Source: a virus
Virus record (IMG/VR): IMGVR_UViG_3300049733_000058
Span: 4,532-68,531 of that record
Reading direction: 5' to 3' (one strand)
DNA: 64,000 nt
Shown here: piece after piece, positions 29,047 through 42,246 of the stretch
Layout: the number at the start of each line of letters is the position of its first letter
Position numbering within the stretch: position 1 is the stretch's first letter
Notes under the pieces: generated by a model
What the model was told of the DNA's origin: nothing
The model's database searches: none
The model's input: the letters and a program-made list of their open reading frames with translations, nothing else
Translations under genes and position numbers: made by a program

Positions 29047-29065
29047 CCATCCGGCCAAGGGTGGG
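29047..29065. repeat. 19-bp repeat, inverted copy at 29774-29792
   Basis: ccatccggccaagggtggg versus cccacccttggccggatgg: exact reverse complements. Confidence 0.9.
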
Positions 29066-29122
29066 TCTGGGTACAGTCGGGGTGGGAATCCATCCGACCT
29101 GGGCTCCCGAAAGGTAGGAATC

Positions 29123-29752: not shown

Positions 29753-29843
29753 CCACAAGGGAGGGCATTCGTGCCCACCCTTGGCCGGATGGGGCAGGGT
29801 GGTTCTACAGTGGGAAGTACCCGCTGGAAAGGTAGGAACTACC

Positions 29844-29999
29844 GTGGACTTCAAGTACGAGTTCGTCGGTATGACGAAGCGGTACGCCAAGTACGAGCCC
29901 CTCCCCGATCAGGGGATCACTGGGTCGTTCTACCTGGCGACCGAGCAGTACGAGGCGCAAGGCAAGCCCGAAGCCCTCGTTCTGACCCTCAGCATCTAA
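29844..29999 (+). CDS. small beta-rich protein (likely paralog of 36286-36471)
   Basis: GTG start after GAAAGGTAG; 51 aa. Confidence 0.7.
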   Translation: MDFKYEFVGMTKRYAKYEPLPDQGITGSFYLATEQYEAQGKPEALVLTLSI

Positions 30000-30124
30000 G
30001 GACCGGAACACCTCGCGGCAGTCAAACCGGAGCCGGTTCGCCAGTGTGGCATCGCTGTTGACAGGAGCGGTGCCCACTGTAGAACTACCCACCCCAACAA
30101 CAAAACAGAAAGGTAGGAACTGCA

Positions 30125-30379
30125 ATGATGGGTGAACTGTACCTGGTAGGTGGTGAGCCGATTCCCCCGGTGCAGGGGGATACGCATCGCACGCCCTTCC
30201 AGCGATACCTGTACGCCTCCCGTATAGCCAACCTCAGTGGTGAAGGCGATCTGCCTTGCCCTTCGTGTGGTGCTACGTGGGAAGCCCACATGGTCATTCA
30301 TGTACTGGGTTGTGACTACATCCAGTGGGTGAACGCCCTCGGAATGTGGGAAGCACAGGCCACACCTGACATGTTGTAG
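30125..30379 (+). CDS. hypothetical protein (CxxC)
   Basis: GAAAGGTAG leader; TTGACA at 30058. Confidence 0.65.
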   Translation: MMGELYLVGGEPIPPVQGDTHRTPFQRYLYASRIANLSGEGDLPCPSCGATWEAHMVIHVLGCDYIQWVNALGMWEAQATPDML

Positions 30380-30384
30380 AAGTG

Positions 30385-30422
30385 GAAGGGCTTCGTTCAG
30401 AAAGTTTTGGGCGAAGCCCTTC
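30385..30422 (+). terminator. hairpin after 30379
   Basis: gaagggcttcg / cgaagcccttc 11-bp inverted repeat. Confidence 0.45.
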
Positions 30423-30635
30423 TGCTGCAACACGAGCCGCTTCTTTATTGGGCGTGTCGGAAGCGGGTTATCTCAAAAGAAGCAAGAGGGAGGGGGGTAC
30501 CCCGGAAATAAGGGGAGGGGGGCCGGTGAGGCGGGTTCCAGATATTTTTCGCGATACCACAGCGTTATGGCGAATCATTTCTGGGCGCTACCATGGTGGT
30601 AGCGTACCCAACAGAAAGGAAAGGTAGGAACTGCA

Positions 30636-31028
30636 ATGAACAAGGACGTTCCCAAGGGCACGTTCAGGTTCGAGGTGGAAGTGGGCAATGGCTCCCTGAC
30701 CGCCGAAGACCTGGCCTGCCTGCACTGGGCCTTCACCCAGCAGACGTTCCCGGACACCGGCGATTCCGACTGGTTCCACGAGACCCGCTTCTACCAGCCC
30801 TACGAACAGGGCGGTGGAGCGACCACCGTGCGCTGGATCGGCACCGGTGATCCGTACATCGCCTACATGCGGGAAACCATCTGGGCGGCGCTCGGCGTGC
30901 CCCACCCGCCGAAGGCAGAGTTCACCGGTTGGATCTTTACGGATTGGTACACCGACAGCATGACCGGCGTGTACGAATCCCCCATCTGGCGGCTCCCCAA
31001 CGGCGAGTTCTGGATGGTGGAGCCCTAA
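30636..31028 (+). CDS. hypothetical protein
   Basis: 130 aa; GAAAGGTAG leader. Confidence 0.75.
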   Translation: MNKDVPKGTFRFEVEVGNGSLTAEDLACLHWAFTQQTFPDTGDSDWFHETRFYQPYEQGGGATTVRWIGTGDPYIAYMRETIWAALGVPHPPKAEFTGWIFTDWYTDSMTGVYESPIWRLPNGEFWMVEP

Positions 31029-31069
31029 CCACCACCCACCCAACCCGAAAAGAAAAAGGAGGTGATCTC

Positions 31070-31216
31070 ATGGGAACCATTGCGTTTCTGCTGACGTTCG
31101 TAGCGTACTGCTTCCTGGCGTGGCTGCTGTGCCGCCTGTTCGACTACATGTGGCAGTTGCACCGAACCCGCCAGATGATGGGCGTAGCAAGAACGTCGTT
31201 CCAGGTACTACCATAG
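31070..31216 (+). CDS. small membrane protein
   Basis: Perfect AAGGAGGTGATC RBS; hydrophobic N-terminus. Confidence 0.65.
   Translation: MGTIAFLLTFVAYCFLAWLLCRLFDYMWQLHRTRQMMGVARTSFQVLP
31185..31214 (+). promoter_or_regulatory. promoter with GAAC-N3-GTTC operator
   Basis: TAGCAA-GAACGTCGTTC...-TACCAT, 18-nt spacer. Confidence 0.7.
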
Positions 31217-31248
31217 TACCGAAACAACCACACAACAGAAAGGTAGCA

Positions 31249-31500
31249 ATGGCAACCGAACTGACCGCTGGCCAACTGGCGGTGGAGAGCGCTGACGTGC
31301 TCCTGCTGCCCGACGTGAAGACGGCCCGAGAAGCCTACGTGGAACACAAGCACGAGGCGTTGGGCCAACTGCTCGGGTGGCTCGTGGACGGTGCGTACGA
31401 CGAACCGTCGTTCGACCCACACAAGTTCATGAACCGCCTGAACTGGCTGCTGGCTGATCTCGGCTACACCATGGATCAGCCCACGGAGCCCCGGCTCTAG
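31249..31500 (+). CDS. hypothetical protein
   Basis: Start re-called to ATG at 31249 after GAAAGGTAG. Confidence 0.75.
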   Translation: MATELTAGQLAVESADVLLLPDVKTAREAYVEHKHEALGQLLGWLVDGAYDEPSFDPHKFMNRLNWLLADLGYTMDQPTEPRL

Positions 31501-31506
31501 CCACCC

Positions 31507-31536
31507 GCCTCCGGCAGTTTCACCGCTGCCGGGGGC
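31507..31536 (+). terminator. hairpin after 31500
   Basis: gcctccggcag / ctgccgggggc stem. Confidence 0.45.
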
Positions 31537-31538
31537 AC

Positions 31539-31568
31539 TGGCACGAAGGTGCCTCGGCCCAGTACAAT
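31539..31568 (+). promoter_or_regulatory. promoter with degenerate operator
   Basis: TGGCAC-GAAGGTGCCTC...-TACAAT, 18-nt spacer. Confidence 0.6.
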
Positions 31569-31604
31569 GGGCTGGAAATACAACAACACAGAAAGGTAGG
31601 TTCC

Positions 31605-31802
31605 ATGACCAAGTTCCGTGTCGACAAGGAAGTCGTGTACACGGAGATGCAGGTGCTGGACGACGAAGAGGGCAACGAATACGAGGTGCTCTTCATCGAG
31701 GCGAAGTCCATGCAGCCGGGCGGTACTTCGTGGTACCGCTTCTACCTGCCGCCGGGCAAGACCTTCGGCGGCGATCTCACGGTAGGTGATCATGCCGACT
31801 GA
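31605..31802 (+). CDS. hypothetical protein
   Basis: 65 aa; GAAAGGTAG leader. Confidence 0.7.
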   Translation: MTKFRVDKEVVYTEMQVLDDEEGNEYEVLFIEAKSMQPGGTSWYRFYLPPGKTFGGDLTVGDHAD

Positions 31803-31950
31803 ATGCCAGGGCACCTGGCGGGATTACCACGGCCCGCTCGAGGCAGAACTACCCGAAGGCAAGTGGTTGATGGTGTGCGATGGGTGCGGTGAGATCGTTA
31901 TGTATCCTGCATCCATCACCCTAGTTCCTGGGAGGGAACGTGCTACCTGA
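31792..31950 (+). CDS. small CxxC protein
   Basis: MPTECQGTW...VCDGCGEI, 52 aa; fills the gap, below the ORF-track cutoff. Confidence 0.5.
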   Translation: MPTECQGTWRDYHGPLEAELPEGKWLMVCDGCGEIVMYPASITLVPGRERAT

Positions 31951-32212
31951 CGAGATCAAGCAACGGGTGGATGCGGCAGCGCATCAGACCCTTCGCATGG
32001 AACCCGACATCGTGCCGTTCATGGGCGTGCAGTGCATGCAGATCTCCTGCGAAGACTGGCAGTTCCTCATGCCCATGGCGGGTGCGAACTGGGCGGCGTT
32101 CCGCATCTACCGGCCCGAGCAGGACGACTTCGACTACTTCGCCATCACCGACATCGAAGACGCCACGTACATCGTGGAGAAGTTGGTGCCTCCGGACCCT
32201 AGCACGAACTGA
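31940..32212 (+). CDS. hypothetical protein
   Basis: 90 aa, GGAGG RBS. Confidence 0.65.
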   Translation: MLPDEIKQRVDAAAHQTLRMEPDIVPFMGVQCMQISCEDWQFLMPMAGANWAAFRIYRPEQDDFDYFAITDIEDATYIVEKLVPPDPSTN

Positions 32213-32229
32213 TTTCCACCTGCTATACT
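32200..32229 (+). promoter_or_regulatory. promoter with GAAC-N3-(G)TTC operator
   Basis: TAGCAC-GAACTGATTTC...-TATACT, 18-nt spacer. Confidence 0.7.
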
Positions 32230-32265
32230 GCTTTCAGCACCACACCAACACAGAAAGGTAGACAA

Positions 32266-32445
32266 ATGATCCGAGAGATCCAAGGCCGGGAACTACAGCC
32301 CGGCCACGTGATTGCCCTGCCCATGGGGCGAACCGCCACCGTGCGGGAAGTCAAGGTGGGGCGTGTGTTCGCCACTTTCGTGACCGAACACGGTAAATCC
32401 CGGGTCGGCCTGAACGACCCGGTGCTGCTGGAGGTGGACGAATGA
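32266..32445 (+). CDS. small beta-rich hypothetical protein
   Basis: MIREIQGRELQPGHVI..., 59 aa after GAAAGGTAG; not in ORF track. Confidence 0.7.
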   Translation: MIREIQGRELQPGHVIALPMGRTATVREVKVGRVFATFVTEHGKSRVGLNDPVLLEVDE

Positions 32446-32744
32446 ACCACCAGACAAGAATCCTCAAGGCGATCGAGGCCAACCTCGAAGGCTGGGAGCC
32501 CAGCCTGGAGATGACCTGGGATCAGACCGTGGCCAGCAACGTGGGCTTCGTCGGCAGCGTGTGGCCGGGTGAGATCACCGCCCGGTACCGCTTCCACTGC
32601 AACTTCCAGGCCGACTACGCCACCTTCGCACCCGTGAAGCCCAACGGGCAGATCAGCGACCGGAAGATCTACGCCAATTTCCACCAGCACGCCAAGGCGG
32701 AAGAGGCCATCATGCAGGTGGTGAAGACACTGTGCGGCTGCTGA
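32442..32744 (+). CDS. hypothetical protein
   Basis: 100 aa, ATGA-coupled. Confidence 0.7.
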   Translation: MNHQTRILKAIEANLEGWEPSLEMTWDQTVASNVGFVGSVWPGEITARYRFHCNFQADYATFAPVKPNGQISDRKIYANFHQHAKAEEAIMQVVKTLCGC

Positions 32745-32828
32745 TGATCGCCCTGTCCGTCGCCGTGGTGGTGGGCGAGTTCTTGGCCTTCCTGTGGTGG
32801 ATGCGCCACGAAAGGAGGTACTGGCACG

Positions 32829-32987
32829 ATGACGAGTGAACGCCCCGCCAAAGAAGTCATGCCCCGGCTGCTGCGCCTGGGCATCGCCCGCAATCGGCAG
32901 CACGATCACGAGCCTCGTACGGTGACCATCACCGATGACGAAGCCCTGGATCTCTACAACTACATCAGAGAACTGGAGGACAACTGA
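32829..32987 (+). CDS. hypothetical protein
   Basis: AAAGGAGG RBS; MTSERPAKEV..., 52 aa. Confidence 0.55.
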   Translation: MTSERPAKEVMPRLLRLGIARNRQHDHEPRTVTITDDEALDLYNYIRELEDN

Positions 32988-33274
32988 TGGCTTTCCCCGG
33001 ACCCGGAGCAGAGATCCACTACAACGAAGCGGGTGAGCCCACCGGCTGGGACTATCCGTCCTATGAGCCGCCTGAGCCCGACCCCTACGAGGAATCCGCA
33101 GCGGATGCCGCTGCCGAAGCGGCGTACTTCTACGCCATGGACGAAGAGGGCGCATCCGACGACGAAGCCTGCAACTTCGCCCGGTATTACGTCCGGCACG
33201 CCAAGGGCCGAACCGAGACGCTGGAGTTCTTCTGGCGCTCTTGGGTGGAGACCAAGGAGGCGAAACTGACGTGA
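32987..33274 (+). CDS. hypothetical acidic protein
   Basis: 95 aa, TGATG-coupled. Confidence 0.65.
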   Translation: MAFPGPGAEIHYNEAGEPTGWDYPSYEPPEPDPYEESAADAAAEAAYFYAMDEEGASDDEACNFARYYVRHAKGRTETLEFFWRSWVETKEAKLT

Positions 33275-33471
33275 GACAGCGCAACCTTCTGGCCGTGCGG
33301 CTCGTGCTGGAGGATCATCCGGAGGGGTTGTATCCATTGCAGATCATGCGTCGCACCAGAATGCTCAGCGGAACGCTGTACCCGGTGCTGGCGCACCTGG
33401 AGCGTGAGGGCGAGATCACCAGTGAGCGCCACGACGATGGGCGGCGTCTGTACCGAAAGGTAGTTTCATGA
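33271..33471 (+). CDS. PadR-like winged-helix regulator
   Basis: LYPLQI...SGTLYPVLAHLEREGEITS...RRLY; GTG start at 33271. Confidence 0.8.
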   Translation: MRQRNLLAVRLVLEDHPEGLYPLQIMRRTRMLSGTLYPVLAHLEREGEITSERHDDGRRLYRKVVS

Positions 33472-33665
33472 AACTGAAGAAGGGCGACCCCGTGATCGTC
33501 GTCGTGGCAGAAGACCCGGTGGACATCGAGTTCGCCGGTGCCTACGAATCAGCGGGGGATTGGCTGGTGACGATACGCCAAGGGGAGAAGTTCTGCCACA
33601 TTCCCAAGGAGACGGTGAAGTGCATCTACCAGCCCATCGATTCTGAGACGCTGGCAGGAACATAG
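33468..33665 (+). CDS. hypothetical protein
   Basis: 65 aa; GAAAGGTAG leader. Confidence 0.65.
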   Translation: MKLKKGDPVIVVVAEDPVDIEFAGAYESAGDWLVTIRQGEKFCHIPKETVKCIYQPIDSETLAGT

Positions 33666-33681
33666 TTCTACGCACTACCCT
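33652..33681 (+). promoter_or_regulatory. promoter with GAAC-N3-GTTC operator
   Basis: TGGCAG-GAACATAGTTC...-TACCCT, 18-nt spacer. Confidence 0.7.
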
Positions 33682-33709
33682 GGTACCAACAACAACAGAA
33701 AGGTAGAAC

Positions 33710-34189
33710 ATGACCACGGATTTCGACCCCAGCACGATCGTCGTTCCTGACTACGGCGATTTCCTGCCCGCCTACATCAAGACGGCGTGGGTAGAAGAGG
33801 ACCACAAGGCCATTCTGGACTGGGTGGTGTTCGGTCCGGAAGACGCCGAGCAGGCGCCCGAGGACACCCCTGAAGATCGCTACCACGACTTCATGGTGTG
33901 GTGCGGTCAGCGGAAGGCTCGGTGGTACGTCAACACGTACTTCACCCACGAGGCCTACGGTGGCCCCGAAGAAGGCGGCTGGTGGTACACCATCCACGCC
34001 CCGGCCGAGCCCAAGGAAGCACTGATCTTCCAGCCCATCGGTCCGTTCGACGACTACGTCAAGGCGTGTGAGGTCAGTGCTTTCATGCTGCCGATCCTGC
34101 GGGCGCAGCACCCCGGCGAGAAGTCGTACACCATCGTCGAACGCCACCGGGCTCGCCTGTACCCCCGCTTCAAGCCCCACTACTGCTGA
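33710..34189 (+). CDS. hypothetical protein (AYGGPEEGGWWY motif)
   Basis: 159 aa; GAAAGGTAG leader. Confidence 0.75.
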   Translation: MTTDFDPSTIVVPDYGDFLPAYIKTAWVEEDHKAILDWVVFGPEDAEQAPEDTPEDRYHDFMVWCGQRKARWYVNTYFTHEAYGGPEEGGWWYTIHAPAEPKEALIFQPIGPFDDYVKACEVSAFMLPILRAQHPGEKSYTIVERHRARLYPRFKPHYC

Positions 34190-34638
34190 TGGCCAGGTGG
34201 CGGCTCTCGAAGTTGAACGTGCCCGGTTGGTGCATGGAATGCGAAGGGCACAGCCTGCCCGTGTTTGACAACGAGTTTCACGGGGAGGGGTTCGTCACGG
34301 TGTACCACGATCTGCGGGTGCATAGGTCGTTCAACGCCGACCTGCGGGGCGATGGGTTCAAGGTCGTCACGCATGGTCGTGACGTCACGAACAACTGCTT
34401 CGCCGCCTTCGTGTACCCGCCGTGGCTGCTGATCAAGCGCTGGAACGACCCCGACGTCGGTCCTCTCGCTCGTCGAGATGCCGGGTGGTACGCCGTCTAC
34501 GAAATGCGGGACGGCCAACGGATTCCCTGTGTGAACTGCCGTAGTCGGGCAGCCCAAAATCTCCTCTACACCAGCGATCTCCACATACATCACACAATGA
34601 AGGTGCCCGATGCTTACGGCTATATCTGGCAAGACTGA
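34189..34638 (+). CDS. hypothetical protein with two CxxC motifs
   Basis: 149 aa, TGATG-coupled. Confidence 0.65.
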   Translation: MARWRLSKLNVPGWCMECEGHSLPVFDNEFHGEGFVTVYHDLRVHRSFNADLRGDGFKVVTHGRDVTNNCFAAFVYPPWLLIKRWNDPDVGPLARRDAGWYAVYEMRDGQRIPCVNCRSRAAQNLLYTSDLHIHHTMKVPDAYGYIWQD

Positions 34639-35014
34639 GGTCAAACGATCTCGCACCCACGGCTGGGGTGTGTTCCTCACCAAGGACGTTCGGAAACACG
34701 AGATCATCGAACGCTCTTTGGCGCTCGCAATTCGGGACACACACATTCGGAAACCGGATCGTTGGTCACCCCTGACCACCCATGCCTTCCACCCGGCGGG
34801 GTTCCGGGAATTGTGGATCTGCACTGGCACGGGCAGTTTCTACAACCATCGCAATCCGGCCAACGTGCACTACGAGTACATCGAAGCCAACGACGACACC
34901 AAGGCCGACTGGATGGAGTTCCGGGCGGTGGGCTACATGCCCAAGAACACAGAACTGTTCATCAACTACAACGGAGAGTGGGACGATGCCACAGAAGTCA
35001 CTTTCAGCCAGTGA
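34610..35014 (+). CDS. SET-domain protein-lysine methyltransferase
   Basis: SRTHGWGVF (GxG), GSFYNH...ANV (NHS-like), FRA...KNTELFINY (ELxxxY). Confidence 0.85.
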   Translation: MLTAISGKTEVKRSRTHGWGVFLTKDVRKHEIIERSLALAIRDTHIRKPDRWSPLTTHAFHPAGFRELWICTGTGSFYNHRNPANVHYEYIEANDDTKADWMEFRAVGYMPKNTELFINYNGEWDDATEVTFSQ

Positions 35015-35042
35015 GCACCTGCGCAAGTTCGAACGGGAGTGG

Positions 35043-35198
35043 ATGACGGACCTGATCGCCGATCACCCCGACGTCAGTCCCGACGAGTTGTACTGGGATG
35101 GCCTGAAGGCATACCTTGCCACCGACGTGGAGCCTGCCGCTCTGCGCAAGGAGATCGCCCGGATGGCGGGCGTGTCAGTGGACGAGGACGGGTTCTGA
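35043..35198 (+). CDS. hypothetical protein
   Basis: MTDLIADHPD..., 51 aa. Confidence 0.5.
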   Translation: MTDLIADHPDVSPDELYWDGLKAYLATDVEPAALRKEIARMAGVSVDEDGF

Positions 35199-35386
35199 TG
35201 CGAATCATCATTGAGACCAAGACCGGCTGGGGACGGAAGCAGAAGCACCGCTGCGTGATCGTGGCGGGCAACAACGAGCCGCTGGTGTGGAGCGAGAAGT
35301 ACCACAACCTCAGCGATGTGGAAACCATGGTCACGCTGTTGAAGGCCGAGGTTCCCACGGCGAAGGTCGAATACATCACGGTGTAG
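35198..35386 (+). CDS. YegP/DUF1508-like small protein
   Basis: VIVAGNNEPLVWSEKY motif; 62 aa. Confidence 0.6.
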   Translation: MRIIIETKTGWGRKQKHRCVIVAGNNEPLVWSEKYHNLSDVETMVTLLKAEVPTAKVEYITV

Positions 35387-35413
35387 CAGGAAGATACTTC
35401 CGCACGCTAAGGT
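35384..35413 (+). promoter_or_regulatory. promoter with GAAG-N3-CTTC operator variant
   Basis: TAGCAG-GAAGATACTTC...-TAAGGT, 18-nt spacer; palindrome preserved. Confidence 0.7.
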
Positions 35414-35447
35414 GTGCGCAGCACAACACCACAACAGAAAGGTAGAA

Positions 35448-35663
35448 ATGGACCAGGAGATCCGCCAGGCGGTGGAGGAACTCACGCCGCCTGGGTTTCA
35501 GGAATTCATCCTCAGGTACCTGGAAGCAGCCGAGGAAATGGGCGGCGTGCTGCAACTGGATCGCCCGTTGGTGCGGGTGAATCGGGCCGATGGTGGGCAG
35601 GTGGCTACGGTTGATCTGCCCGCTGCCGAGACGTTCATCATCACGCCGCCGGAGCGTGGCTAG
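35448..35663 (+). CDS. hypothetical protein
   Basis: Start re-called to ATG at 35448 after GAAAGGTAG. Confidence 0.7.
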   Translation: MDQEIRQAVEELTPPGFQEFILRYLEAAEEMGGVLQLDRPLVRVNRADGGQVATVDLPAAETFIITPPERG

Positions 35664-35892
35664 GGAAAACCTGGGCCTCACCGTGAATGGGCTGCCGCTG
35701 GATGATGGCGCTGGCCTGTGGGTGCCCGAGAACTGCTTTCCTGGTGCGACTTCCCGTGACGCCCGTGTGACCGAACGGTGGCACAGCGATAGCGTGAAGA
35801 CACCGGGGCAGGTGCACCGCAAGAAGACCCGGAAGAAGAAGCCCCCGACCCGAGAGCAAATGCTAGAAAGGATGCGCCGTGGGCTCGGCTGA
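35656..35892 (+). CDS. hypothetical basic protein
   Basis: GTG start overlapping upstream gene. Confidence 0.5.
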   Translation: MARENLGLTVNGLPLDDGAGLWVPENCFPGATSRDARVTERWHSDSVKTPGQVHRKKTRKKKPPTREQMLERMRRGLG

Positions 35893-36202
35893 AGAACTGA
35901 TCGCAAGGCTCAGAGACGACATCGCCAAGGAGTACTTCCACCCAGCGGGCGATGCTTGCTTTGACTACCACATGGAAGGTGACCTGATCATGACCGAGAT
36001 CCGACCCCGGTTGGAATCGGACAACGGATACGACTGCGCCATGCATGCCCTGCACATGGGGATGCTGGCCGATGCAGCGGCCATCAGCAAGATGCTGGCC
36101 GAGGACGAAGACCCGGTGGCGGTGGACCCCGAGTTGATCATCCGGATCCTCAACACCGCCGAGAAGGAGGACTTGATCGAATGGCGCTCCCTGCCTGACT
36201 AG
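35879..36202 (+). CDS. hypothetical protein
   Basis: 107 aa. Confidence 0.6.
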   Translation: MGSAEELIARLRDDIAKEYFHPAGDACFDYHMEGDLIMTEIRPRLESDNGYDCAMHALHMGMLADAAAISKMLAEDEDPVAVDPELIIRILNTAEKEDLIEWRSLPD

Positions 36203-36206
36203 CCAC

Positions 36207-36236
36207 TTGCAGGAACGTCTTTCCATCAACCACAAT
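36207..36236 (+). promoter_or_regulatory. promoter with GAAC-N3-(G)TTC operator
   Basis: TTGCAG-GAACGTCTTTC...-CACAAT, 18-nt spacer. Confidence 0.65.
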
Positions 36237-36285
36237 GTTACTGGCACCAACGGGGTGCCGGAACAACAGCAAAGGGAGAATAGAA

Positions 36286-36471
36286 ATGCCCACGAGTCCC
36301 AAGAAGACGGTCACGATTCCGATGACCAAGACCAAGGAGACCAAGGGAACCTGGCACTACGCCGCCGATGACGACACGGCGATCGCCAGCAACATCTACG
36401 TCAGCAAGGTCGGCCTCGACAAGATCGAGAACGCCGAGAAGATCGAGGTGACGATCACGAAGGTCTCGTAG
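36286..36471 (+). CDS. small beta-rich protein (likely paralog of 29844-29999)
   Basis: MPTSPKKTVTIPMTKTKETKGTWHY..., 61 aa. Confidence 0.75.
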   Translation: MPTSPKKTVTIPMTKTKETKGTWHYAADDDTAIASNIYVSKVGLDKIENAEKIEVTITKVS

Positions 36472-36579
36472 CCGCTACCTCCCCTGAACGCCGCCCCGTT
36501 CAGGCTGGCGGCTACGATGAAACCCGGTGGGTCGGGGAAGGCGTATTCCTACCTTTCCGCTGACCCCGGCCCTACCGGG
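36466..36579 (+). ncRNA. candidate structured RNA with anti-RBS sequence
   Basis: Stems 36466-75/36508-17, 36483-90/36497-504 and 36523-37/36564-79; contains ATTCCTACCTTTCC, the reverse complement of the early-gene leader. Confidence 0.6.
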
Positions 36580-36604
36580 AATTCCCAAATAGAAAGGTAG
36601 CAAC

Positions 36605-37075
36605 ATGATTCTCGGATTCACGGGCACCCGTCAGGGCATGACGGAAGCCCAACTGGAAGCCGTGTCGTTCACGCTGACCTGCTACCGCCCGGATTGGGTG
36701 GTGCACGGTGGATGCGTGGGCGCCGACCTGCAATTCGCCGATCTGGCCCTGCGCCTGGGTGACATCCGGAGCGAAGTGTGGCCTGCGGACATCGGTGCAC
36801 CACTGCCGGATTGGCTGGTGCAGACCGCCATTGAGATCAAGCCTGCCAAGGCTCCGCTGGTGCGCAACCGTGACATCGTGACGGCCAGCGAGATGATGAT
36901 CGCCTGCCCTGCGCAGCCGGACGAGATCCAACGTTCTGGCACCTGGGCCACCTACCGCTACGCCCGAGCCATGGGCAAGCCTGTGAAGTTGGTGGCTCCT
37001 AGCGGCTACGTCACCATGCACCCGGTGAAGGGTTGGAAAGACCCGTTCACCGGCAAGGTTCGAGACCCTCTGTAA
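36605..37075 (+). CDS. SLOG-superfamily (DprA/YspA-like) protein
   Basis: LGFTGTR, VHGGCVGAD, RNRDIV, SGTWAT. Confidence 0.8.
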   Translation: MILGFTGTRQGMTEAQLEAVSFTLTCYRPDWVVHGGCVGADLQFADLALRLGDIRSEVWPADIGAPLPDWLVQTAIEIKPAKAPLVRNRDIVTASEMMIACPAQPDEIQRSGTWATYRYARAMGKPVKLVAPSGYVTMHPVKGWKDPFTGKVRDPL

Positions 37076-37233
37076 TGCCCGTTCGCCGGTGCGCCGTGTG
37101 TCAGGCAGACCTGCCTCGCAACGACGAATTCGTCGTGTGCAGTGACGAATGCTGGGACGTGCTGGAAGGCAAGGCGACGCCGCAACAGATCGAACACATC
37201 CTGACAAAATCAGCCTACTACACAAGGAGTTAG
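37075..37233 (+). CDS. small zinc-ribbon protein
   Basis: CAVC...CSDEC; 52 aa. Confidence 0.6.
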   Translation: MPVRRCAVCQADLPRNDEFVVCSDECWDVLEGKATPQQIEHILTKSAYYTRS

Positions 37234-37236
37234 CAC

Positions 37237-37872
37237 ATGCGAAGAGTCCTGTTAGGAATCCTGGCCCTGGCGTTGGTGGCGGTTACGTTCGTCACCAGTG
37301 AGGAGCAGGCCAGCGAGGCGAACCACTGCGACCCCCGAGGGATCATCAAGTGCCACGCCACGCTGTACCCCAACCCGAACTTCTACTTTGCCGAGCAATT
37401 CTACGACGGCGCCATCCACTGCGCCGTGGCAGAAGGCTGGCTGACTTCATACGCCGGGGCGTCGCTGGGGAATCCGGGTGGCTACTCGCCTGCCTTCTAC
37501 GGTGAGTTCACCGGCAGCACCCGGCAAGGCCCGTTCTGCTCGTTCTGGGAGGACGCAGGCAAGGGCTGGATCAGCGTCAACGTCACGCTGTGGCGGTGGA
37601 ACGACGGGTGGATCTATCCGCAGTTCTGCACTTCTACCGGCTGGCAGTCCAACCAGTTCGACGGTATATCGCCAACGATGACGGTCTCGCTGGGTAGCAA
37701 GTGGTACGACCCACGGCTCCAGCAGTGGCGGACGACGCCCTACAGCGTGGCTGGAACTTCGTGTGCCGGATGGGGTGGCCGGTTCCAGGTGCAGGCAGAG
37801 TTCTACATCGCCCGTAACCTGGGGATGCGGTACGCCTCGCTGTGGACAAGCCCTGAAGTACGAGGAGGATGA
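37237..37872 (+). CDS. secreted Cys/Trp/Gly-rich protein
   Basis: Signal peptide MRRVLLGILALALVAV...ASEA; AAGGAG RBS. Confidence 0.75.
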   Translation: MRRVLLGILALALVAVTFVTSEEQASEANHCDPRGIIKCHATLYPNPNFYFAEQFYDGAIHCAVAEGWLTSYAGASLGNPGGYSPAFYGEFTGSTRQGPFCSFWEDAGKGWISVNVTLWRWNDGWIYPQFCTSTGWQSNQFDGISPTMTVSLGSKWYDPRLQQWRTTPYSVAGTSCAGWGGRFQVQAEFYIARNLGMRYASLWTSPEVRGG

Positions 37873-37873
37873 C

Positions 37874-38005
37874 ATGCAAAACCGCAACCGATTCGACGGC
37901 CCCACCGAGCAGGACCGCCGGGACGAAACCAAGTTCCTGTGGATCCTGGTGGCGTGCCTGGCCTTCGTGATCATCGTGGCCGGTATCGCCATCGCCACCG
38001 TCTGA
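37874..38005 (+). CDS. small membrane protein
   Basis: GAGGAGG RBS; C-terminal hydrophobic helix. Confidence 0.6.
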   Translation: MQNRNRFDGPTEQDRRDETKFLWILVACLAFVIIVAGIAIATV

Positions 38006-38166
38006 TGGTCCGCTTCGAGATGAGCGCCACTGTGACCGCAGTGGTGCACGACCACTTCTTCGTCGAAGTGGCGGATAAGACCCTCATTCGTGTGTACCTT
38101 CCGCCCCACGCCGATGAACCCAAGGTGGGCCAGAAGGCCACCGTTGCCGTGGAGGTATGGCAGTAA
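38005..38166 (+). CDS. hypothetical protein
   Basis: MVRFEMSATV..., coupled at both ends. Confidence 0.55.
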   Translation: MVRFEMSATVTAVVHDHFFVEVADKTLIRVYLPPHADEPKVGQKATVAVEVWQ

Positions 38167-38324
38167 TGGAGAAGTTCACTATCACGGTCAGTGGTGAGGA
38201 CATCACCGACCTGGACTTCATTCGAGAGCGCTGCGTGACCGCAGTGGAGGAAGTGGTGGAGGAGAGCAAAGGCCGCTTCGATGCTGAGGTGGTCGTGGAC
38301 TGGGAGTGGGGCGATGCTGAGTAG
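38166..38324 (+). CDS. hypothetical protein
   Basis: MEKFTITVSG..., 52 aa, TAATG-coupled; not in ORF track. Confidence 0.55.
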   Translation: MEKFTITVSGEDITDLDFIRERCVTAVEEVVEESKGRFDAEVVVDWEWGDAE

Positions 38325-38520
38325 GGAGCAATTCCTCAAGCGCACGGCGTTCCGGTTCCGTGCGAAGACCGCAGCCAGCCGGGGTCTCAACGAGCGGGAG
38401 GAGGCCCTGGCTGCATTCGTCTATGACGAGGCGTGCGAGGAAATCGTGCGGTCCATCATGGAGGGAATGCGAGAGGCTTGGTACGGAGTGCCCCCGTGTG
38501 AGGAGGCTGAAAGTGGCTGA
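38314..38520 (+). CDS. hypothetical protein
   Basis: MLSREQFLKR... Confidence 0.55.
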   Translation: MLSREQFLKRTAFRFRAKTAASRGLNEREEALAAFVYDEACEEIVRSIMEGMREAWYGVPPCEEAESG

Positions 38521-38851
38521 CAAGCAAGTGGAAGAGGTCTGGCTTCAGATGATGCTGTTCCAGCGTGACCTGTGGAGCCAGGCGGTCAAGGAGTTCGAGA
38601 AGGGCGAACTGGGGCGGGCGATGATCTTCATGCGGGAGGCGGCTGCCCTACTGTTCCACGGCAAGCAGGAATATGCCGGGGTGGCTGCCCGAGCGCTAGG
38701 GCAGGAGGGCTACACCGGCGAAGACCTGCGGTTGCTGCATGAGCGTATGCGGCCAGAGATCGAACACTTCTATCTACTGTACAGCATCGAACAAGGAGAC
38801 AACGGTGAAACTGCGCAAACTTCAGAAGGTCAACGCCGAACGAGCGATTGA
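38513..38851 (+). CDS. hypothetical protein
   Basis: GTG start after AGGAGG. Confidence 0.6.
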   Translation: MADKQVEEVWLQMMLFQRDLWSQAVKEFEKGELGRAMIFMREAAALLFHGKQEYAGVAARALGQEGYTGEDLRLLHERMRPEIEHFYLLYSIEQGDNGETAQTSEGQRRTSD

Positions 38852-39143
38852 GTGGCACAAGCCCGGTCACGCCGAATGGACAGGCGGCGACTGGGGCAAC
38901 GCCATGGGTGGCGAATGCGGTGAGGCCCAGAACGTCATCAAGAAGATCCGCCGCTTGGAGTGCGGCCTGGCTACGGAGCCGCCCTTCGAGGTAGACCTGG
39001 TGGCAGAGTTGGCCGAGGAATTGGCCGACACGCTCCTGTACGTGCTGCTGGTGGCGGAGCACTTCGGCATTGACATGACCATCGCCACCCGCTACAAGTT
39101 CAACAAGGTGTCGGAGGAGAAGGGATTCGAGCAGCGCATATGA
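38805..39143 (+). CDS. MazG-like nucleotide pyrophosphohydrolase
   Basis: GECGEAQNVIKK...LAEELADTLLY...KFN; AAGGAG RBS before GTG at 38805. Confidence 0.9.
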   Translation: MKLRKLQKVNAERAIEWHKPGHAEWTGGDWGNAMGGECGEAQNVIKKIRRLECGLATEPPFEVDLVAELAEELADTLLYVLLVAEHFGIDMTIATRYKFNKVSEEKGFEQRI

Positions 39144-39337
39144 GAACGAGCACGTTGATGGCTGCGGGGTTCCTCGCTGCGGGAACAGGCTATTTGGTTG
39201 GCCTGAGCCTATATCGGGACATTAACGTGCCACCGGCACCCAAGTTGATCAAAGAACCACAGCAACAAATACAACCAGAACCTGATTGGTGCCAGGAGTT
39301 CTTCGGGCCGCTGGCCTATTGGCTCTGTCAGGAATAG
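39140..39337 (+). CDS. small membrane-anchored protein
   Basis: N-terminal hydrophobic helix; ATGA-coupled. Confidence 0.55.
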   Translation: MRTSTLMAAGFLAAGTGYLVGLSLYRDINVPPAPKLIKEPQQQIQPEPDWCQEFFGPLAYWLCQE

Positions 39338-39351
39338 CAAGGGAGAAAGGT

Positions 39352-39690
39352 ATGGCCAAGAGCCGCAACCACGGCGACATGGAAATCTGCACGGGCTGGA
39401 ACCGCCACAAGATGGACCCGGCTCCGGGCAGTGGGCGCAAGGTCCAGTTCGGCATCCCGGTGTACTGGCGCTGCGATCGCTGCCACACCGAGCGGGTGGA
39501 CGTGTACAGCGTCACGGGCAAGAAGATCAGCCAGAAGTATTACCGGCCCGACGACTACCAGGAGCACCTGGAAGACGTCCGCCTGGAAAGCCCCGAGGAA
39601 AAGCGGGTCCGGGCGTTCAAGATCATGCGGCAAAAGCCCGCAAAGCGGTCACCCCGTAAGGGGAACCTTCGGTTGGTGAGAACCGCTTAG
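39352..39690 (+). CDS. hypothetical protein (CxxC)
   Basis: MAKSRNHG...WRCDRCHTER; start re-called to 39352. Confidence 0.65.
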   Translation: MAKSRNHGDMEICTGWNRHKMDPAPGSGRKVQFGIPVYWRCDRCHTERVDVYSVTGKKISQKYYRPDDYQEHLEDVRLESPEEKRVRAFKIMRQKPAKRSPRKGNLRLVRTA

Positions 39691-39719
39691 GTCGCATAGG
39701 CTCTGCACCGCAAAGGTAG

Positions 39720-40298
<579 letters not shown>

Positions 40299-40325
40299 GG
40301 TACTAACCCGACGAGGAGAGGAGAA

Positions 40326-40682
40326 ATGGCCAAGGACAAAGACCTGGAAGTCGGCATCATTTTCATTCCGCTCAAGGAATGGAACCAGATGCTGAGAACA
40401 CTCGAATCCATTGACCGTCGGATGGAGACGGTCATCAGGTTAGAAAGGAAGCAAATGGCAGAGATCGAAGACCTTCAGACCGAGGTATCGCAGAACACGG
40501 ACCTGACGGGTTCGGTGGTCGCCCTGGTCAACGGCTTGGCCGACCAGTTGGAAGCAGCGATTGCCAACGCTCAGGACCCCGAGGCTGCGGCGAAGGTGCA
40601 GGCGGTCGTGGACCAGATGCGTTCGAACAACCAGGCGTTGGCCGACGCAGTCGCGGCGAACACCGAGGTGAATCCCCTGTAA
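40326..40682 (+). CDS. coiled-coil hypothetical protein
   Basis: 118 aa heptad-rich; strong RBS. Confidence 0.7.
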   Translation: MAKDKDLEVGIIFIPLKEWNQMLRTLESIDRRMETVIRLERKQMAEIEDLQTEVSQNTDLTGSVVALVNGLADQLEAAIANAQDPEAAAKVQAVVDQMRSNNQALADAVAANTEVNPL

Positions 40683-40690
40683 CCTGGGGG

Positions 40691-40930
40691 ATGGATGCTT
40701 CACCGAGGGCGGTAGCCCGGAGAGCCCGGAGGGAGAAATGGTTTTGGATTGCCAACCTCCCGGTCTGTGCGGCGTTGTACTTCGGGCTGCCGCCCAAGGT
40801 GATGGGGCTGTACATCGCACTGGTTTCGGTACACGCCCTGGTCAAGACCTGTGCCACCGAAGAACAGGCGGCTGAAGCAAGGGAGGCCGCAGATGCCCAA
40901 CAAACGAATGAGGTCGATAGCGAAGAATAG
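40691..40930 (+). CDS. small membrane protein
   Basis: Two short hydrophobic segments. Confidence 0.55.
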   Translation: MDASPRAVARRARREKWFWIANLPVCAALYFGLPPKVMGLYIALVSVHALVKTCATEEQAAEAREAADAQQTNEVDSEE

Positions 40931-41069
40931 GCGCCACGTCTACGAAAGACTCAAGGGCAAGGGGTTCAGCAAGGCCAAGGCAGCCAAGATCGCCAACGCG
41001 GGCAAGACCAAGAAAGGGCGGAGCCGCATGGCGAAGAAGGCAGCCCGGACCCGCAAGCGGAGGAAGTGA
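40893..41069 (+). CDS. very basic small protein
   Basis: YERLKGKGFSKAKAAKIANAG...RKRRK; GGAGG RBS. Confidence 0.65.
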   Translation: MPNKRMRSIAKNRRHVYERLKGKGFSKAKAAKIANAGKTKKGRSRMAKKAARTRKRRK

Positions 41070-41281
41070 TGGCCCGCTTGAAGGCAGCCCGCAGGAAGAA
41101 GTTGAAGAAGTCGCAGTTCGGTTTGCCGGGTAGCCGCAAGTACCCGATGCACGACCGCAAGCATGCTGCGAATGCCAAGGCCCGAGCGACGCAGCAGTAC
41201 AAGAAGGGCCGCATCAGCAAGTCCACCAAGAACAAGATCCACGCCAAGGCCAATCGGAAACTCAGGCGTGGCAAGAAATAA
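41069..41281 (+). CDS. very basic small protein (DUF6582-like)
   Basis: FGLPGSRKYPMHDRKHAANAKAR. Confidence 0.7.
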   Translation: MARLKAARRKKLKKSQFGLPGSRKYPMHDRKHAANAKARATQQYKKGRISKSTKNKIHAKANRKLRRGKK

Positions 41282-41298
41282 GTTCTGGGTGGTACCAT
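41269..41298 (+). promoter_or_regulatory. promoter with GAA(C)-N3-GTTC operator
   Basis: TGGCAA-GAAATAAGTTC...-TACCAT, 18-nt spacer. Confidence 0.7.
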
Positions 41299-41334
41299 AC
41301 AGTAGTCACAAAAACACAACAGAAAGGTAGTGCA

Positions 41335-42246
41335 ATGGAAAAGGACGAAGTCCTCAGGAAGGTCCAGGCACTTCTGGACAAGGCGGAAAGCACCGGCTTC
41401 ACAGCCGAGGCTGACGCTGCCCGTGCCAAGGCCGACCAGTTGATGCTGGCCTACAGCATCGAAATGTGGGAACTGGACAAGCGGCGCAAGCCCGAGCAGC
41501 GGGCCACGCCGGAGATCCGCAAGTTCCACATCTGCATGAGCGACAACCCCGTCAGCGAGCAGTTGGAAGGCGTGTTCATGACGCTGTGCAACCACTGGCG
41601 GGTTCGCAGCGTGTACTACGGCTTCGGTCGCACGCCTCGCAAGGGGCAGTCGCCCTGGGAGCAGTACGCCAAGGTGGTCGGTTTCCCACAGGAACTGGAC
41701 TGGCTGGAACTGATGTTCACCACCATGCGGCTGCACATCGGGACCAACCTGGAGCCCAAGCCCGACCCGGCCCTTGACTTCGAGGACAACCTCGTCAAGA
41801 TGAAAGAGGCGGGTATGAAGTGGGAGCGCATCCACGAACTGCTGCGGCCTGACGTGCCGTGGTCCCGCACCCACGGCGTTCGCTACACGAAGATGTATAC
41901 CGACCACTGCCTGATCAACGGCAAGGAGCGGATGTACACCAGCCCGCTCACATATCAGCGGAACTTCGTGGAGGGCTACCGCATGCAGATCTCCAGCCGC
42001 CTGTGGGACATCAGGCAGTACCGGCAGGATCCCAGTGGCAGCGGCAACGGCATGGAACTGATGCTGCGGGACAAGAAGGTGCTGATCGACGAACTGTACG
42101 ACGAGACCTTCAAGGATCTCAAGTCCCGCAAGGCCAAGAAGATGACCTTCGACCGCAACGCTTGGTCCGCTGGTCAAAAGGCCGGGGCCACTGCCGATCT
42201 GGGGCAGGAGCGTATGGGCCGAGGGCCACGGGAGATTGGGCAGTGA
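41335..42246 (+). CDS. DUF2786 domain protein
   Basis: LRKVQALLDKAEST.FTAEADAARAKADQLMLAYSI. Confidence 0.85.
   Translation: MEKDEVLRKVQALLDKAESTGFTAEADAARAKADQLMLAYSIEMWELDKRRKPEQRATPEIRKFHICMSDNPVSEQLEGVFMTLCNHWRVRSVYYGFGRTPRKGQSPWEQYAKVVGFPQELDWLELMFTTMRLHIGTNLEPKPDPALDFEDNLVKMKEAGMKWERIHELLRPDVPWSRTHGVRYTKMYTDHCLINGKERMYTSPLTYQRNFVEGYRMQISSRLWDIRQYRQDPSGSGNGMELMLRDKKVLIDELYDETFKDLKSRKAKKMTFDRNAWSAGQKAGATADLGQERMGRGPREIGQ

What the first reader, a model, noticed from the sequence alone, without database searches (positions are those of the whole stretch)
36466..36604. Candidate phage RNA carrying the exact antisense of the shared early-gene ribosome-binding motif
Seen: the intergenic region folds into two domains. 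The second is a ~15-bp stem (36523-36537 with 36564-36579, one U-G pair favouring the + strand) whose apex contains ATTCCTACCTTTCC (36545-36558). That is the reverse complement of GGAAAGGTAGGAAT. It pairs 13/13 with the leaders at 29109-29121, 29826-29838 and 30618-30630, 12/12 at 30108, and at least 9/9 with eight more GAAAGGTAG sites, including the next gene's RBS at 36592-36600. An alternative local pairing (gggaagg 36535-41 with cctttcc 36552-58) could hide the anti-RBS. Inference: either a trans-acting sRNA that shuts off translation of about 12 early genes at once, or a cis anti-SD switch on the SLOG gene. The longest complementarity is to distant genes, which favours trans action.
Basis: partly seen in the sequence, partly recalled or inferred. 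Interest (0 to 1): 0.85.

Follow-up and report, generated by a model that had tools for sequence, protein, structure and literature searches.

The report
Phage hairpin complementary to early ribosome sites
An uncultivated phage carries, between two early genes, a strongly conserved RNA hairpin whose open loop is the exact complement of the special ribosome-binding motif used by twelve of its early genes, which suggests an RNA that switches those genes off, though no expression data exist yet.

Summary
GAAAGGTAG occurs 12 times on the + strand, always 2-8 nt before a start codon, and once in reverse at 36549-36557. That reverse copy lies in the 14-nt apical loop of a stable + strand hairpin (36523-36579) and matches four leaders over 12-13 nt. 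The hairpin core is the longest exact match (46 nt) between the window and its nearest relative, a 12.4-kb contig that is otherwise about 71-88% identical. The two stem differences keep pairing.

Two more distant relatives use other start-site motifs (AGGAGGTAG, AAAGGAGCC). Each carries the complement of its own motif in intergenic hairpins. Cluster K mycobacteriophages show the same layout: their single reverse 'start-associated sequence' sits in the loop of a covarying hairpin.

Evidence against: no RNA data exist. Four related genomes with repeated motifs have no non-RBS reverse copy. Three of 15 sampled cluster K phages keep the motif but not the loop.

Best reading (about 0.45): an anti-RBS regulatory RNA element. 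Whether it acts in trans or in cis is unresolved. It would be a new variant of a known kind.

The parts
36207..36236 (+). Promoter-like element of the phage's recurrent early type: -35-like TTGCAG, inverted repeat GGAA-N5-TTCC, then a -10-like CACAAT. It would drive the transcript that carries the hairpins.
   Evidence: Same architecture upstream of at least six motif-bearing leaders in the window, and in L150 and L151. Assignment as a promoter is inference. The generic sigma-70 scan did not call it.
36243..36259 (+). Short 5'-leader hairpin GGCACC...GGTGCC.
   Evidence: Read from the sequence. Also present in L150.
36286..36471 (+). 61-aa ORF of unknown function, first cistron of the unit. 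Its own Shine-Dalgarno (AAAGGGAG, 36271-36278) lacks the TAG of the shared motif.
   Evidence: ORF. No Pfam or PHROG family. Loop duplex with its SD is only -7.8 kcal/mol. The L150 homologue has GAAAGGCAA.
36464..36520 (+). Hairpin 1, which starts at the stop codon of the 61-aa ORF.
   Evidence: MFE and centroid folds. L150 keeps the outer stem with a C-to-T change (G-C becomes G-U) but has a different, shorter apex.
36523..36579 (+). Hairpin 2: 15-bp outer stem with one bulge, a 4-bp inner stem, and a 14-nt apical loop.
   Evidence: The 46-nt core 36529-36574 is the longest exact match between the window and L150. The covariance model scores 92 bits on + and 22.9 on -.
36545..36558 (+). Anti-RBS sequence ATTCCTACCTTTCC, the reverse complement of GGAAAGGTAGGAAT.
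   Evidence: Unpaired probability 0.88. Duplex energies with the 12 sites are -12.8 to -21.3 kcal/mol.
36592..36600 (+). GAAAGGTAG ribosome-binding motif of the next gene, 33 nt after the loop. This is the candidate cis target (9 bp).
36605..37075 (+). 156-aa gene downstream, SLOG-like. The only family hit is PHROG 289, 'GTP-binding domain'.
   Evidence: E = 2.4e-9. No Pfam hit. Relatives at 34-44% identity in 10 IMG/VR loci.
29109..29121 (+). Target site, 13/13 complementary to the loop. RBS of a 209-aa ORF.
   Evidence: -19.9 kcal/mol.
29826..29838 (+). Target site, 13/13. RBS before a GTG start.
   Evidence: -21.1.
30108..30119 (+). Target site, 12/12. RBS of an 84-aa ORF.
   Evidence: -18.8.
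30618..30630 (+). Target site, 13/13. RBS of a 130-aa ORF.
   Evidence: -21.3.
31238..41330 (+). Span holding the other seven distant 9/9 sites (31238, 31591, 32253, 33455, 33698, 35437, 41322). Each precedes an early ORF of 59-303 aa.
   Evidence: -13.2 to -16.1 kcal/mol. Nine of these genes were scanned. Eight have no Pfam or PHROG family at E<=0.001; the 159-aa ORF at 33710 hits two function-unknown PHROGs. 41335-42246 carries DUF2786.

Best explanation
Hairpin 2 (36523-36579, + strand) is a functional RNA element that shows a 14-nt single-stranded loop able to pair with the phage-specific extended Shine-Dalgarno motif GAAAGGTAG(GAA) of twelve early genes. It is transcribed as part of the unit 'promoter-like site 36207-36236, 61-aa ORF, hairpins, SLOG gene'. 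It may be trimmed out of that mRNA. Pairing of the loop with an RBS (9-13 bp) would block 30S binding or trigger cleavage, and so lower translation of the motif-bearing early genes. The effect would be strongest on the four genes at 29.1-30.6 kb. The adjacent SLOG RBS could be hit in cis. Shown: the complementarity, the fold, the strand preference, the sequence conservation, and the recurrence of 'own motif, own anti-motif in a hairpin' in other lineages. Inferred: transcription, pairing in vivo, repression, and trans action.
For: (1) Exact complementarity of 9-13 nt to all 12 motif sites. These are the top-ranked duplex partners of the loop across + strand windows.
(2) Stable two-hairpin fold, z = -5.0, with the loop unpaired. 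G-U pairs favour the + strand.
(3) Purifying selection. The 46-nt core is the longest exact match in the 12.4 kb shared with L150, where flanking segments are 71-88% identical. The two stem differences are an inserted A that fills the bulge and a C-to-T that gives G-U. Both preserve pairing, and the 1-nt indel rules out a conserved ORF.
(4) The loop tracks the motif across lineages. G003 (DnaE 64% identical) uses AGGAGGTAG (7 forward) and has CTACCTCCT twice on the same strand in intergenic two-hairpin elements. One copy is in a loop and one is paired to a motif copy. Both-strand expectation is 0.12 in 17.6 kb. L243 uses AAAGGAGCC (6 forward) and has GGCTCCTTT in the apex of a roughly 24-bp hairpin, matching 10-11 nt of 5 of 6 sites.
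(5) An independent parallel. In cluster K mycobacteriophage Anaya, the single reverse start-associated sequence noted by Pope 2011 (PMC3203893, passages read) lies in the 10-nt loop of a hairpin in the gp96-gp97 gap. The element is present in 133 records. In the 15 I aligned, 7 of 29 predicted pairs show compensatory changes. In Adephagia it lies in the gp92-gp93 gap, where late transcription is reported to start (PMC11373665, section 19 passage).
(6) The first cistron of the carrier transcript has a variant SD without TAG in both the window and L150.
Against: - No transcript evidence of any kind. No RNA run was listed.
- Only one close relative exists, so covariation in the window's own hairpin rests on two changes.
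- Four related genomes with a repeated start-site motif lack a non-RBS reverse copy. G004 has 7 forward and 0 reverse in 58 kb. In G005 the one opposite copy is an ordinary RBS. G006 and G007 have 5 and 3 copies, all on the early-gene strand, and none opposite.
- In cluster K, 3 of the 15 phages I aligned (Amohnition, Amgine, SirPhilip) keep 15-18 forward SAS but have a non-complementary loop in the homologous hairpin. The paper reports no reverse site in TM4 or Pixie.
- Both reversed copies in G003 are followed on the - strand by GTG and ORFs of 61 and 72 aa. They could therefore be leftward RBSs, although the translations look like antisense noise.
- The L243 hairpin folds at least as well on the - strand.
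- The carrier unit has the same promoter type as its presumed targets, so no temporal logic is evident.
- Rfam has no match.
Confidence: 0.45

Rival explanations
1. A cis-only switch. The loop folds back on the SLOG gene's own Shine-Dalgarno (36592-36600) 33 nt downstream and forms a pseudoknot. This sets or couples SLOG translation to the upstream ORF. The match to distant genes arises only because they share the same RBS motif.
For: 9/9 complementarity at short range (-12.8 kcal/mol). A 12-nt linker after the stem is kept at similar length in L150. Hairpin and target lie on one transcript. Cis pairing needs no accumulation of a separate RNA.
Against: The own site is the weakest of the 12 partners. 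The conserved 5' part of the loop (ATTCC) pairs only with distant sites. In the nested folds the SLOG SD is open (0.76 unpaired). In G003 element B the next motif-bearing RBS is about 320 nt away, behind a strong GC hairpin. In Anaya the element is about 200 nt from the next gene, whose RBS is not an SAS. Pseudoknot energy was not computed.
Confidence: 0.2
2. A structural RNA element with another role, such as a U-tract-less terminator or attenuator, a processing or stability hairpin, or a protein-binding operator. On this reading the loop's likeness to an anti-Shine-Dalgarno sequence does not act by pairing with RBSs.
For: It sits right after a stop codon as one of two tandem GC-rich hairpins, like the G003 elements. 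Cluster K relatives keep the hairpin with unrelated loops (3 of 15), which shows such a hairpin can persist without the anti-motif.
Against: There is no run of T after either hairpin, and the terminator scan finds nothing there. Terminators usually keep structure rather than 46 nt of exact sequence. This reading does not explain why three lineages each carry the complement of their own different motif.
Confidence: 0.2
3. A DNA-level site, for example an operator-like palindrome for the regulator that may bind the GAA-N5-TTC repeats in the early promoters, or an origin or nick site. The reverse motif would then be incidental.
For: The apex contains GGAA-N6-TTCC, which resembles the GGAA-N5-TTCC repeat in the early promoter-like elements.
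Against: The spacing is N6, against N5 in all promoter copies I listed. G-U pairs and the better + strand fold point to RNA. A DNA site does not predict motif-matched loops in other lineages.
Confidence: 0.08
4. Chance. One reverse copy of a 9-mer happens to fall in a hairpin.
For: About 0.1 reverse copies of the 9-mer are expected per strand. Four of the related genomes have none.
Against: The match extends to 13 nt. A given 13-mer is expected about 0.001 times in 68 kb (my arithmetic; counts). It lies in a loop, in the most conserved 46 nt, and the pattern recurs in G003, L243 and cluster K.
Confidence: 0.04

Closest known systems
Start-associated sequences (SAS/ESAS) of cluster K mycobacteriophages (Pope et al. 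2011, PMC3203893; Adephagia paper PMC11373665; passages read)
   Same: A phage-specific motif that extends the Shine-Dalgarno sequence. It has 11-19 copies, 3-7 nt before starts of non-structural genes, in one orientation. It is often preceded by a promoter with an inverted repeat (ESAS). [quoted passage not shown] Here I find that this copy lies in a hairpin loop on the sense strand. The window has the same three-part layout: promoter-like element with GAA-N5-TTC repeat, motif before the start, and one reverse copy in a loop.
   Different: The motif sequence differs (GGGATAGGAGCCC against GAAAGGTAG). The phages are unrelated and the host of the window is unknown. The cluster K element stands in a long gap near the right genome end, where late transcription starts. 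The window's element stands inside the early region between two early genes. The function of SAS is still described as undefined. In the passages returned by my keyword searches of those papers, I found no statement that the reverse site forms a hairpin loop. I did not read the papers in full and could not see supplements or figures.
c4 antisense RNA of phages P1 and P7 (Citron and Schuster 1990, as summarised in PMC12197685, passage read; Rfam RF01695 named in PMC2864571)
   Same: A phage RNA encoded on the same strand as its target. Its loops pair with complementary sequences around a ribosome-binding site and block translation.
   Different: c4 controls one operon (ant) for immunity. Here about 12 RBSs share the target. 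There is no sequence or structure match to RF01695 or any Rfam family. That c4 is processed from its transcript is my recollection, not from a call.
C-rich-loop sRNAs of Gram-positive bacteria (RsaE, RNAIII; Geissmann et al. 2009, PMC2790875, abstract and passages read)
   Same: Unpaired C-rich motifs in hairpin loops pair with Shine-Dalgarno sequences of several mRNAs and prevent formation of the initiation complex.
   Different: Those are host sRNAs with a 4-nt UCCC core that target ordinary SDs. Here the loop is 13-14 nt and specific for a phage-private extension (…TAGGAA) of the SD. It is predicted to bind the motif more tightly than a 16S tail would (using recalled 16S tail motifs).
T4 RegA translational repressor and RegB nuclease (recalled, not from any call)
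   Same: A phage-encoded factor that acts on the ribosome-binding regions of many early mRNAs at once to shut them off.
   Different: Those are proteins. Here the proposed effector is an RNA loop.

Membership tests
c4 antisense RNA (Rfam RF01695) or any Rfam family | Match to the family covariance model at its gathering score | tested here: not met
   No family reaches its gathering score in the 64-kb window. At E up to 10 on 36200-36700, only sub-threshold chance hits appear: miRNA models at 16-17 bits, against gathering scores of 70-84.
Intrinsic (Rho-independent) terminator | GC-rich hairpin followed directly by a run of T/U | tested here: not met
   After hairpin 1 comes GATGAAACCC, and after hairpin 2 comes AATTCCCAAATA. 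The terminator scan of 28000-42000 reports no site at 36460-36600 on +. U-tract-less terminators cannot be excluded.
Trans-acting base-pairing sRNA | Accessible seed complementary to target mRNAs | tested here: met
   Loop unpaired probability is 0.88. There are 9-13 contiguous pairs with 12 RBSs, at -12.8 to -21.3 kcal/mol.
Trans-acting base-pairing sRNA | A discrete, stable transcript with its own promoter and terminator, or defined processing sites | tested here: inconclusive
   No promoter of the phage's recurrent type lies between 36300 and 36520. No U-tract terminator is present. No RNA run was listed. Processing cannot be tested with these tools.
Cis SD-sequestering element (thermometer or riboswitch-platform type) | The gene's SD is paired to an anti-SD in the default fold | tested here: not met
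   In the MFE and centroid folds, and in the ensemble, the SLOG SD is open. A loop-SD pseudoknot is possible but nested folding cannot assess it.
Cluster K SAS/ESAS system | The 13-bp consensus GGGATAGGAGCCC before start codons | tested here: not met
   The window's motif is GAAAGGTAG. It resembles SAS in layout, not in sequence. I did not search the window for the SAS consensus itself.
Cluster K SAS/ESAS system | Layout: many same-strand copies 3-7 nt before starts of non-structural genes, promoter with inverted repeat upstream of a subset, and a single reverse copy away from any start | tested here: met
   12 forward copies 2-8 nt before starts, at 29.1-41.3 kb. A promoter-like element with GAA-N5-TTC lies upstream of at least six of them. 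There is one reverse copy with no start codon after it on the - strand.
Protein-coding ORF across the hairpin | Reading frame conserved in relatives | tested here: not met
   A 50-aa - strand ORF (36475-36627) spans the hairpin, but L150 has a 1-nt insertion inside it.

The most novel reading that the evidence does not exclude
Phages that mark a set of early genes with a private, extended Shine-Dalgarno 'start-associated' motif also encode a matching hairpin RNA. Its loop imitates the 16S rRNA tail but fits the private motif better. By competing with ribosomes it shuts off the whole marked gene set at once, doing with RNA what T4 RegA does with protein. The same principle would explain the so far unexplained start-associated sequences, and their lone reverse copy, in cluster K mycobacteriophages. 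There the hairpin lies where the late transcript begins.
Probability: 0.3. Interest if true: 0.85.

Novelty: new variant of a known kind. Interest (0 to 1): 0.68.

Why it matters
If true, one short RNA loop would control about a dozen phage early genes through a private ribosome-binding code. No phage RNA of this kind came up in my two searches.

It would also give a concrete, testable answer to a question open since 2011: what the start-associated sequences of cluster K mycobacteriophages are for. The papers I read still call their role undefined. The test is simple because the prediction is base pairing. Change the loop, lose repression. Change the motif to match, regain it.

For genome annotation, it suggests a cheap rule for finding regulatory RNAs in uncultivated phages. 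Look for the single reverse copy of an over-represented start-site motif and ask whether it sits in a hairpin loop.

If it is false, the hairpin is still the most conserved non-coding element of this phage's early region and needs another explanation.

Tried and rejected
- GenBank phages: no match to 35000-38000 (megablast) or 36235-37075 (blastn).
- tRNA and tmRNA: none.
- Rfam: nothing at gathering score or at permissive thresholds.
- RNA evidence: no RNA holder was listed for 33000-40000.
- IMG/VR scans with the 14-mer, with a leader-plus-motif 15-mer, and with an 18-mer of the loop gave only single chance hits or nothing. I inspected nine of the loci holding two or more copies of the 8-mer or 9-mer, and none was a relative.
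- SLOG-gene relatives (10 loci at 34-44% identity) carry no motif and were not informative.
- DnaE relatives G001 and G002 (about 50% identity) share no early genes and have no repeated start motif.
- The gene upstream of G003 element B has no relative in IMG/VR other than itself.
- A covariance model built from the window and L150 found no further homologue in 31 sources, 552 kb in total.
- A genome-contig scan with the DUF2786 alignment found no prophage relative, so the host stays unknown.
- Rejected as a promoter: TACCTT in the loop resembles the -10 boxes, but it directly abuts the TTCC repeat instead of lying 6 nt away.
- Rejected as a - strand RBS: no ATG, GTG or TTG follows the reverse motif within 12 nt in the window, L243 or Anaya.
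Supplements are closed and I did not request them. The SAS site tables of Pope 2011 and of the 2025 K4 paper are in figures or supplements I could not see. The ZoeJ transcriptome paper (PMC6452893) is not held.
- Complex prediction, structure prediction and the protein-homology searches were not used. The question is about RNA.
Full report
**What the window is.** The window is bases 4532-68531 of a 68.5-kb IMG/VR virus record rated complete, with 60% G+C. Large ORFs on the - strand occupy the left part. A + strand array follows from about 27.5 kb. It holds many small ORFs without known families and then replication genes: SNF2 helicase, primase-helicase and a DnaE-type polymerase. GenBank phages hold nothing similar at the DNA level.

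**The observation.** GAAAGGTAG occurs 13 times, where shuffles expect 0.21.
- Twelve copies are on the + strand between 29109 and 41322. Each lies 2-8 nt before an ATG or GTG that opens an ORF of 51-303 aa.
- The thirteenth copy is on the - strand at 36549-36557. The whole record gives the same 12 and 1.
- On the + strand, 36460-36610 folds into two hairpins (-70.6 kcal/mol, z = -5.0). The reverse motif occupies the 14-nt apical loop of the second hairpin.
- The - strand folds less well (z = -2.8). A covariance model of the hairpin scores 92 bits on + and 23 on -, because G-U pairs become A-C.
- The complement of 36545-36558 matches 13, 13, 13 and 12 contiguous bases at 29109, 29826, 30618 and 30108, and 9 bases at the other eight sites.

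**Context.** Upstream of at least six motif sites lies a recurrent promoter-like element. It consists of T(G/A)GCAn, an inverted repeat GAA-N5-TTC, six bases, then TAnnnT, followed by a CA-rich leader of about 15-20 nt.
- One such element (36207-36236) precedes a 61-aa ORF (36286-36471). The SD of that ORF is AAAGGGAG, not the shared motif.
- The two hairpins follow its stop codon. Then come the GAAAGGTAG site at 36592 and the SLOG-like gene.
- No promoter of this type stands directly before the hairpins, and no run of T follows either hairpin.
- The element is therefore most simply part of an operon mRNA rather than a free-standing sRNA gene. This is inference.

**Conservation.** One metagenome contig (L150, 12.4 kb) is a close relative. 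Its DUF2786 protein is 82% identical, and alignable DNA is 71-88% identical.
- It has the same gene order, 7 forward GAAAGGTAG and one reverse copy, and the same two-hairpin fold.
- The longest exact match between the two sequences is 46 nt, at 36529-36574. That is the core of hairpin 2.
- The stem differs by an inserted A opposite the base that bulges in the window, and by a C-to-T change that turns G-C into G-U. The 1-nt indel rules out a conserved ORF.
- Hairpin 1 keeps only its outer stem.
- This is good evidence for selection on the nucleotide sequence of hairpin 2, but it rests on a single comparison.

**Does the loop follow the motif in relatives?** I searched IMG/VR with DnaE and with an alignment of DUF2786 proteins. 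For each relative I looked for a repeated start-proximal 9-mer.

| Lineage | Motif | Same-strand copies | Opposite copies | Nature of the opposite copies |
|---|---|---|---|---|
| G000 (window) | GAAAGGTAG | 12 | 1 | apical loop of hairpin 2 |
| L150 (close relative) | GAAAGGTAG | 7 | 1 | same loop |
| G003 (DnaE 64%) | AGGAGGTAG | 7 | 2 | intergenic two-hairpin elements |
| L243 | AAAGGAGCC | 6 | 2 | one ordinary leftward RBS, one in a hairpin apex |
| G004 | CTAGGAGGT | 7 | 0 | none |
| G005 | GAAGGGAGC | 6 | 1 | ordinary RBS of an opposite-strand gene |
| G006 / G007 | AAGGAGGTC | 5 / 3 | 0 / 0 | none |

- G003: the both-strand expectation is 0.12 in 17.6 kb. Both copies lie just after stop codons. 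In one, the anti-motif is in the loop of a 7-bp stem ahead of a strong GC hairpin. In the other, it is paired with a motif copy, and the + strand fold is far better than the - strand fold (-63.8 against -44.2 kcal/mol).
- L243: the hairpin-apex copy sits on a stem of roughly 24 bp and matches 10-11 nt of five of the six sites.
- G004: its motif is itself a small palindrome, GAACCTAGGAGGTTC.

Three lineages (counting L150 with the window) therefore carry the complement of their own, different motif in a hairpin, and four genomes do not.

Caveats. Both G003 copies are followed on the - strand by GTG and ORFs of 61 and 72 aa. These look like antisense noise but cannot be dismissed. The L243 hairpin folds slightly better on the - strand.

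**An independent parallel.** The layout matches the start-associated sequences (SAS) of cluster K mycobacteriophages.
- The SAS is a 13-bp motif with 11-19 copies, 3-7 bp before starts of non-structural genes. About half of the SAS-bearing genes also carry an upstream inverted repeat (ESAS), later read as a promoter.
[quoted passage not shown] They leave open whether an RNA or a protein binds the SAS (PMC3203893, passages). Later papers still call the role undefined.
- I fetched Anaya. The reverse copy (one mismatch) lies in the 385-bp gap between gp96 and gp97. On the sense strand it forms the 10-nt loop of a long hairpin that follows another hairpin (z = -4.0 and -6.0).
- The 121-nt element is present in 133 cluster K records. 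I aligned 15 of them, chosen for spread of identity. RNAalifold predicts 29 pairs, 7 of which show compensatory changes, with many G-U pairs.
- The loop is CCTCCTATC in 12 of the 15.
- In Adephagia the element lies between gp92 and gp93. That is the gap where 'late transcription appears to initiate' (PMC11373665, section 19 passage). Whether the start is upstream of the hairpin is not stated in what I read.
- Against an obligate link: Amohnition, Amgine and SirPhilip keep 15-18 forward SAS but have other loops in the homologous hairpin. The paper lists no reverse site for TM4 and Pixie.

**Mechanism.**
- The loop is predicted to be open, with mean unpaired probability 0.88 in a 501-nt context.
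- Across 40-nt windows of the + strand, its best duplex partners are the four extended RBSs (-18.8 to -21.3 kcal/mol). The other eight sites give -12.8 to -16.1.
- Each value is stronger than the duplex of the same site with recalled 16S-tail motifs (a rough comparison only).
- The SD of the carrier's first cistron pairs poorly (-7.8 kcal/mol).
- The most economical reading is that the loop competes with 30S subunits for the marked RBSs.
- The SLOG RBS, 33 nt downstream, is the weakest partner but the closest. A cis pseudoknot is geometrically possible with the 12-nt linker. I could not compute it.
- Nothing here decides between trans and cis. The conserved ATTCC part of the loop, which pairs only with distant sites, leans toward trans. 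With only one relative that point is weak.

**Comparison with known systems.**
- The element works like the P1/P7 c4 RNA, where loops pair around an RBS on the same strand. It also works like the C-rich-loop sRNAs of Gram-positive bacteria, which block SDs of several mRNAs.
- It is not a member of any Rfam family.
- It resembles the SAS/ESAS system in layout but not in sequence.
- It lacks the run of U that defines an intrinsic terminator.
- Two literature searches for a phage RNA directed against a shared early-gene RBS motif found none. These cover only the open-access library.

**Verdict.** I put about 0.45 on an anti-RBS RNA that acts at least partly in trans. I put 0.2 on a cis-only switch and 0.2 on a structural element with another role. 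The remainder goes to a DNA-level site or chance. I rate it a new variant of a known kind, with interest 0.68. The score reflects the clean base-pairing prediction, the recurrence across unrelated phages, and the link to the unexplained SAS system. It is tempered by the lack of any expression data and by lineages that do without the reverse copy.

Noticed in passing
window 30050-41310 (for example about 31185-31215, 31540-31570, 32200-32230, 33645-33675, 35385-35415, 36207-36236, 41270-41300): A recurrent early promoter-like element: T(G/A)GCAn, inverted repeat GAA-N5-TTC, six bases, then TAnnnT, followed by a CA-rich leader. The same element occurs in L150 and L151. The layout resembles the ESAS promoters of cluster K phages and suggests an unidentified regulator that binds the repeat.
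   Followed up: partly
window 39625-39760: A structured non-coding stretch (-56.7 kcal/mol, z = -3.1) that contains CAAAGGTAGGAG. It holds a 32-nt exact match to L150 (39724-39755) just before the GTG at 39753. It may be a second regulatory RNA or leader. The loop of hairpin 2 pairs with it at -16.1 kcal/mol.
   Followed up: partly
L219 39790-39910 (Mycobacterium phage Anaya, record 59789-59909), and 132 other cluster K records: A two-hairpin element with compensatory changes holds the lone reverse SAS in its second loop. Some annotations place a hypothetical protein over it (Angelica gp92, Validus gp103, Ageofdapage gp98) while others leave it empty (Anaya, Adephagia, CrimD). It may be a non-coding RNA that is sometimes annotated as a gene.
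   Followed up: yes
L242 4330-8970 (IMG/VR record G004): The repeated start-site motif of this relative is a palindrome, GAACCTAGGAGGTTC (7 of 8 sites). Each Shine-Dalgarno sequence could therefore be half-hidden in its own 6-bp mini-hairpin. This record has no reverse copy.
   Followed up: partly
window 12215 and 16947 (- strand), 28242 and 44137 (+ strand): A few genes outside the early set, including the 1694-aa and 582-aa ORFs on the - strand, also have GGTAG 2-10 nt before the start. The TAG after the SD may therefore be a wider habit of this phage. Its role is unexplained.
   Followed up: no
L139 584-769 and 7526-7744 (- strand; IMG/VR record G003): Each reversed motif copy in G003 is followed on the - strand by GTG and an ORF of 61 or 72 aa that is antisense to the upstream gene. 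The translations are Pro/Val/Ala-rich and look spurious, but the coincidence is unexplained.
   Followed up: partly
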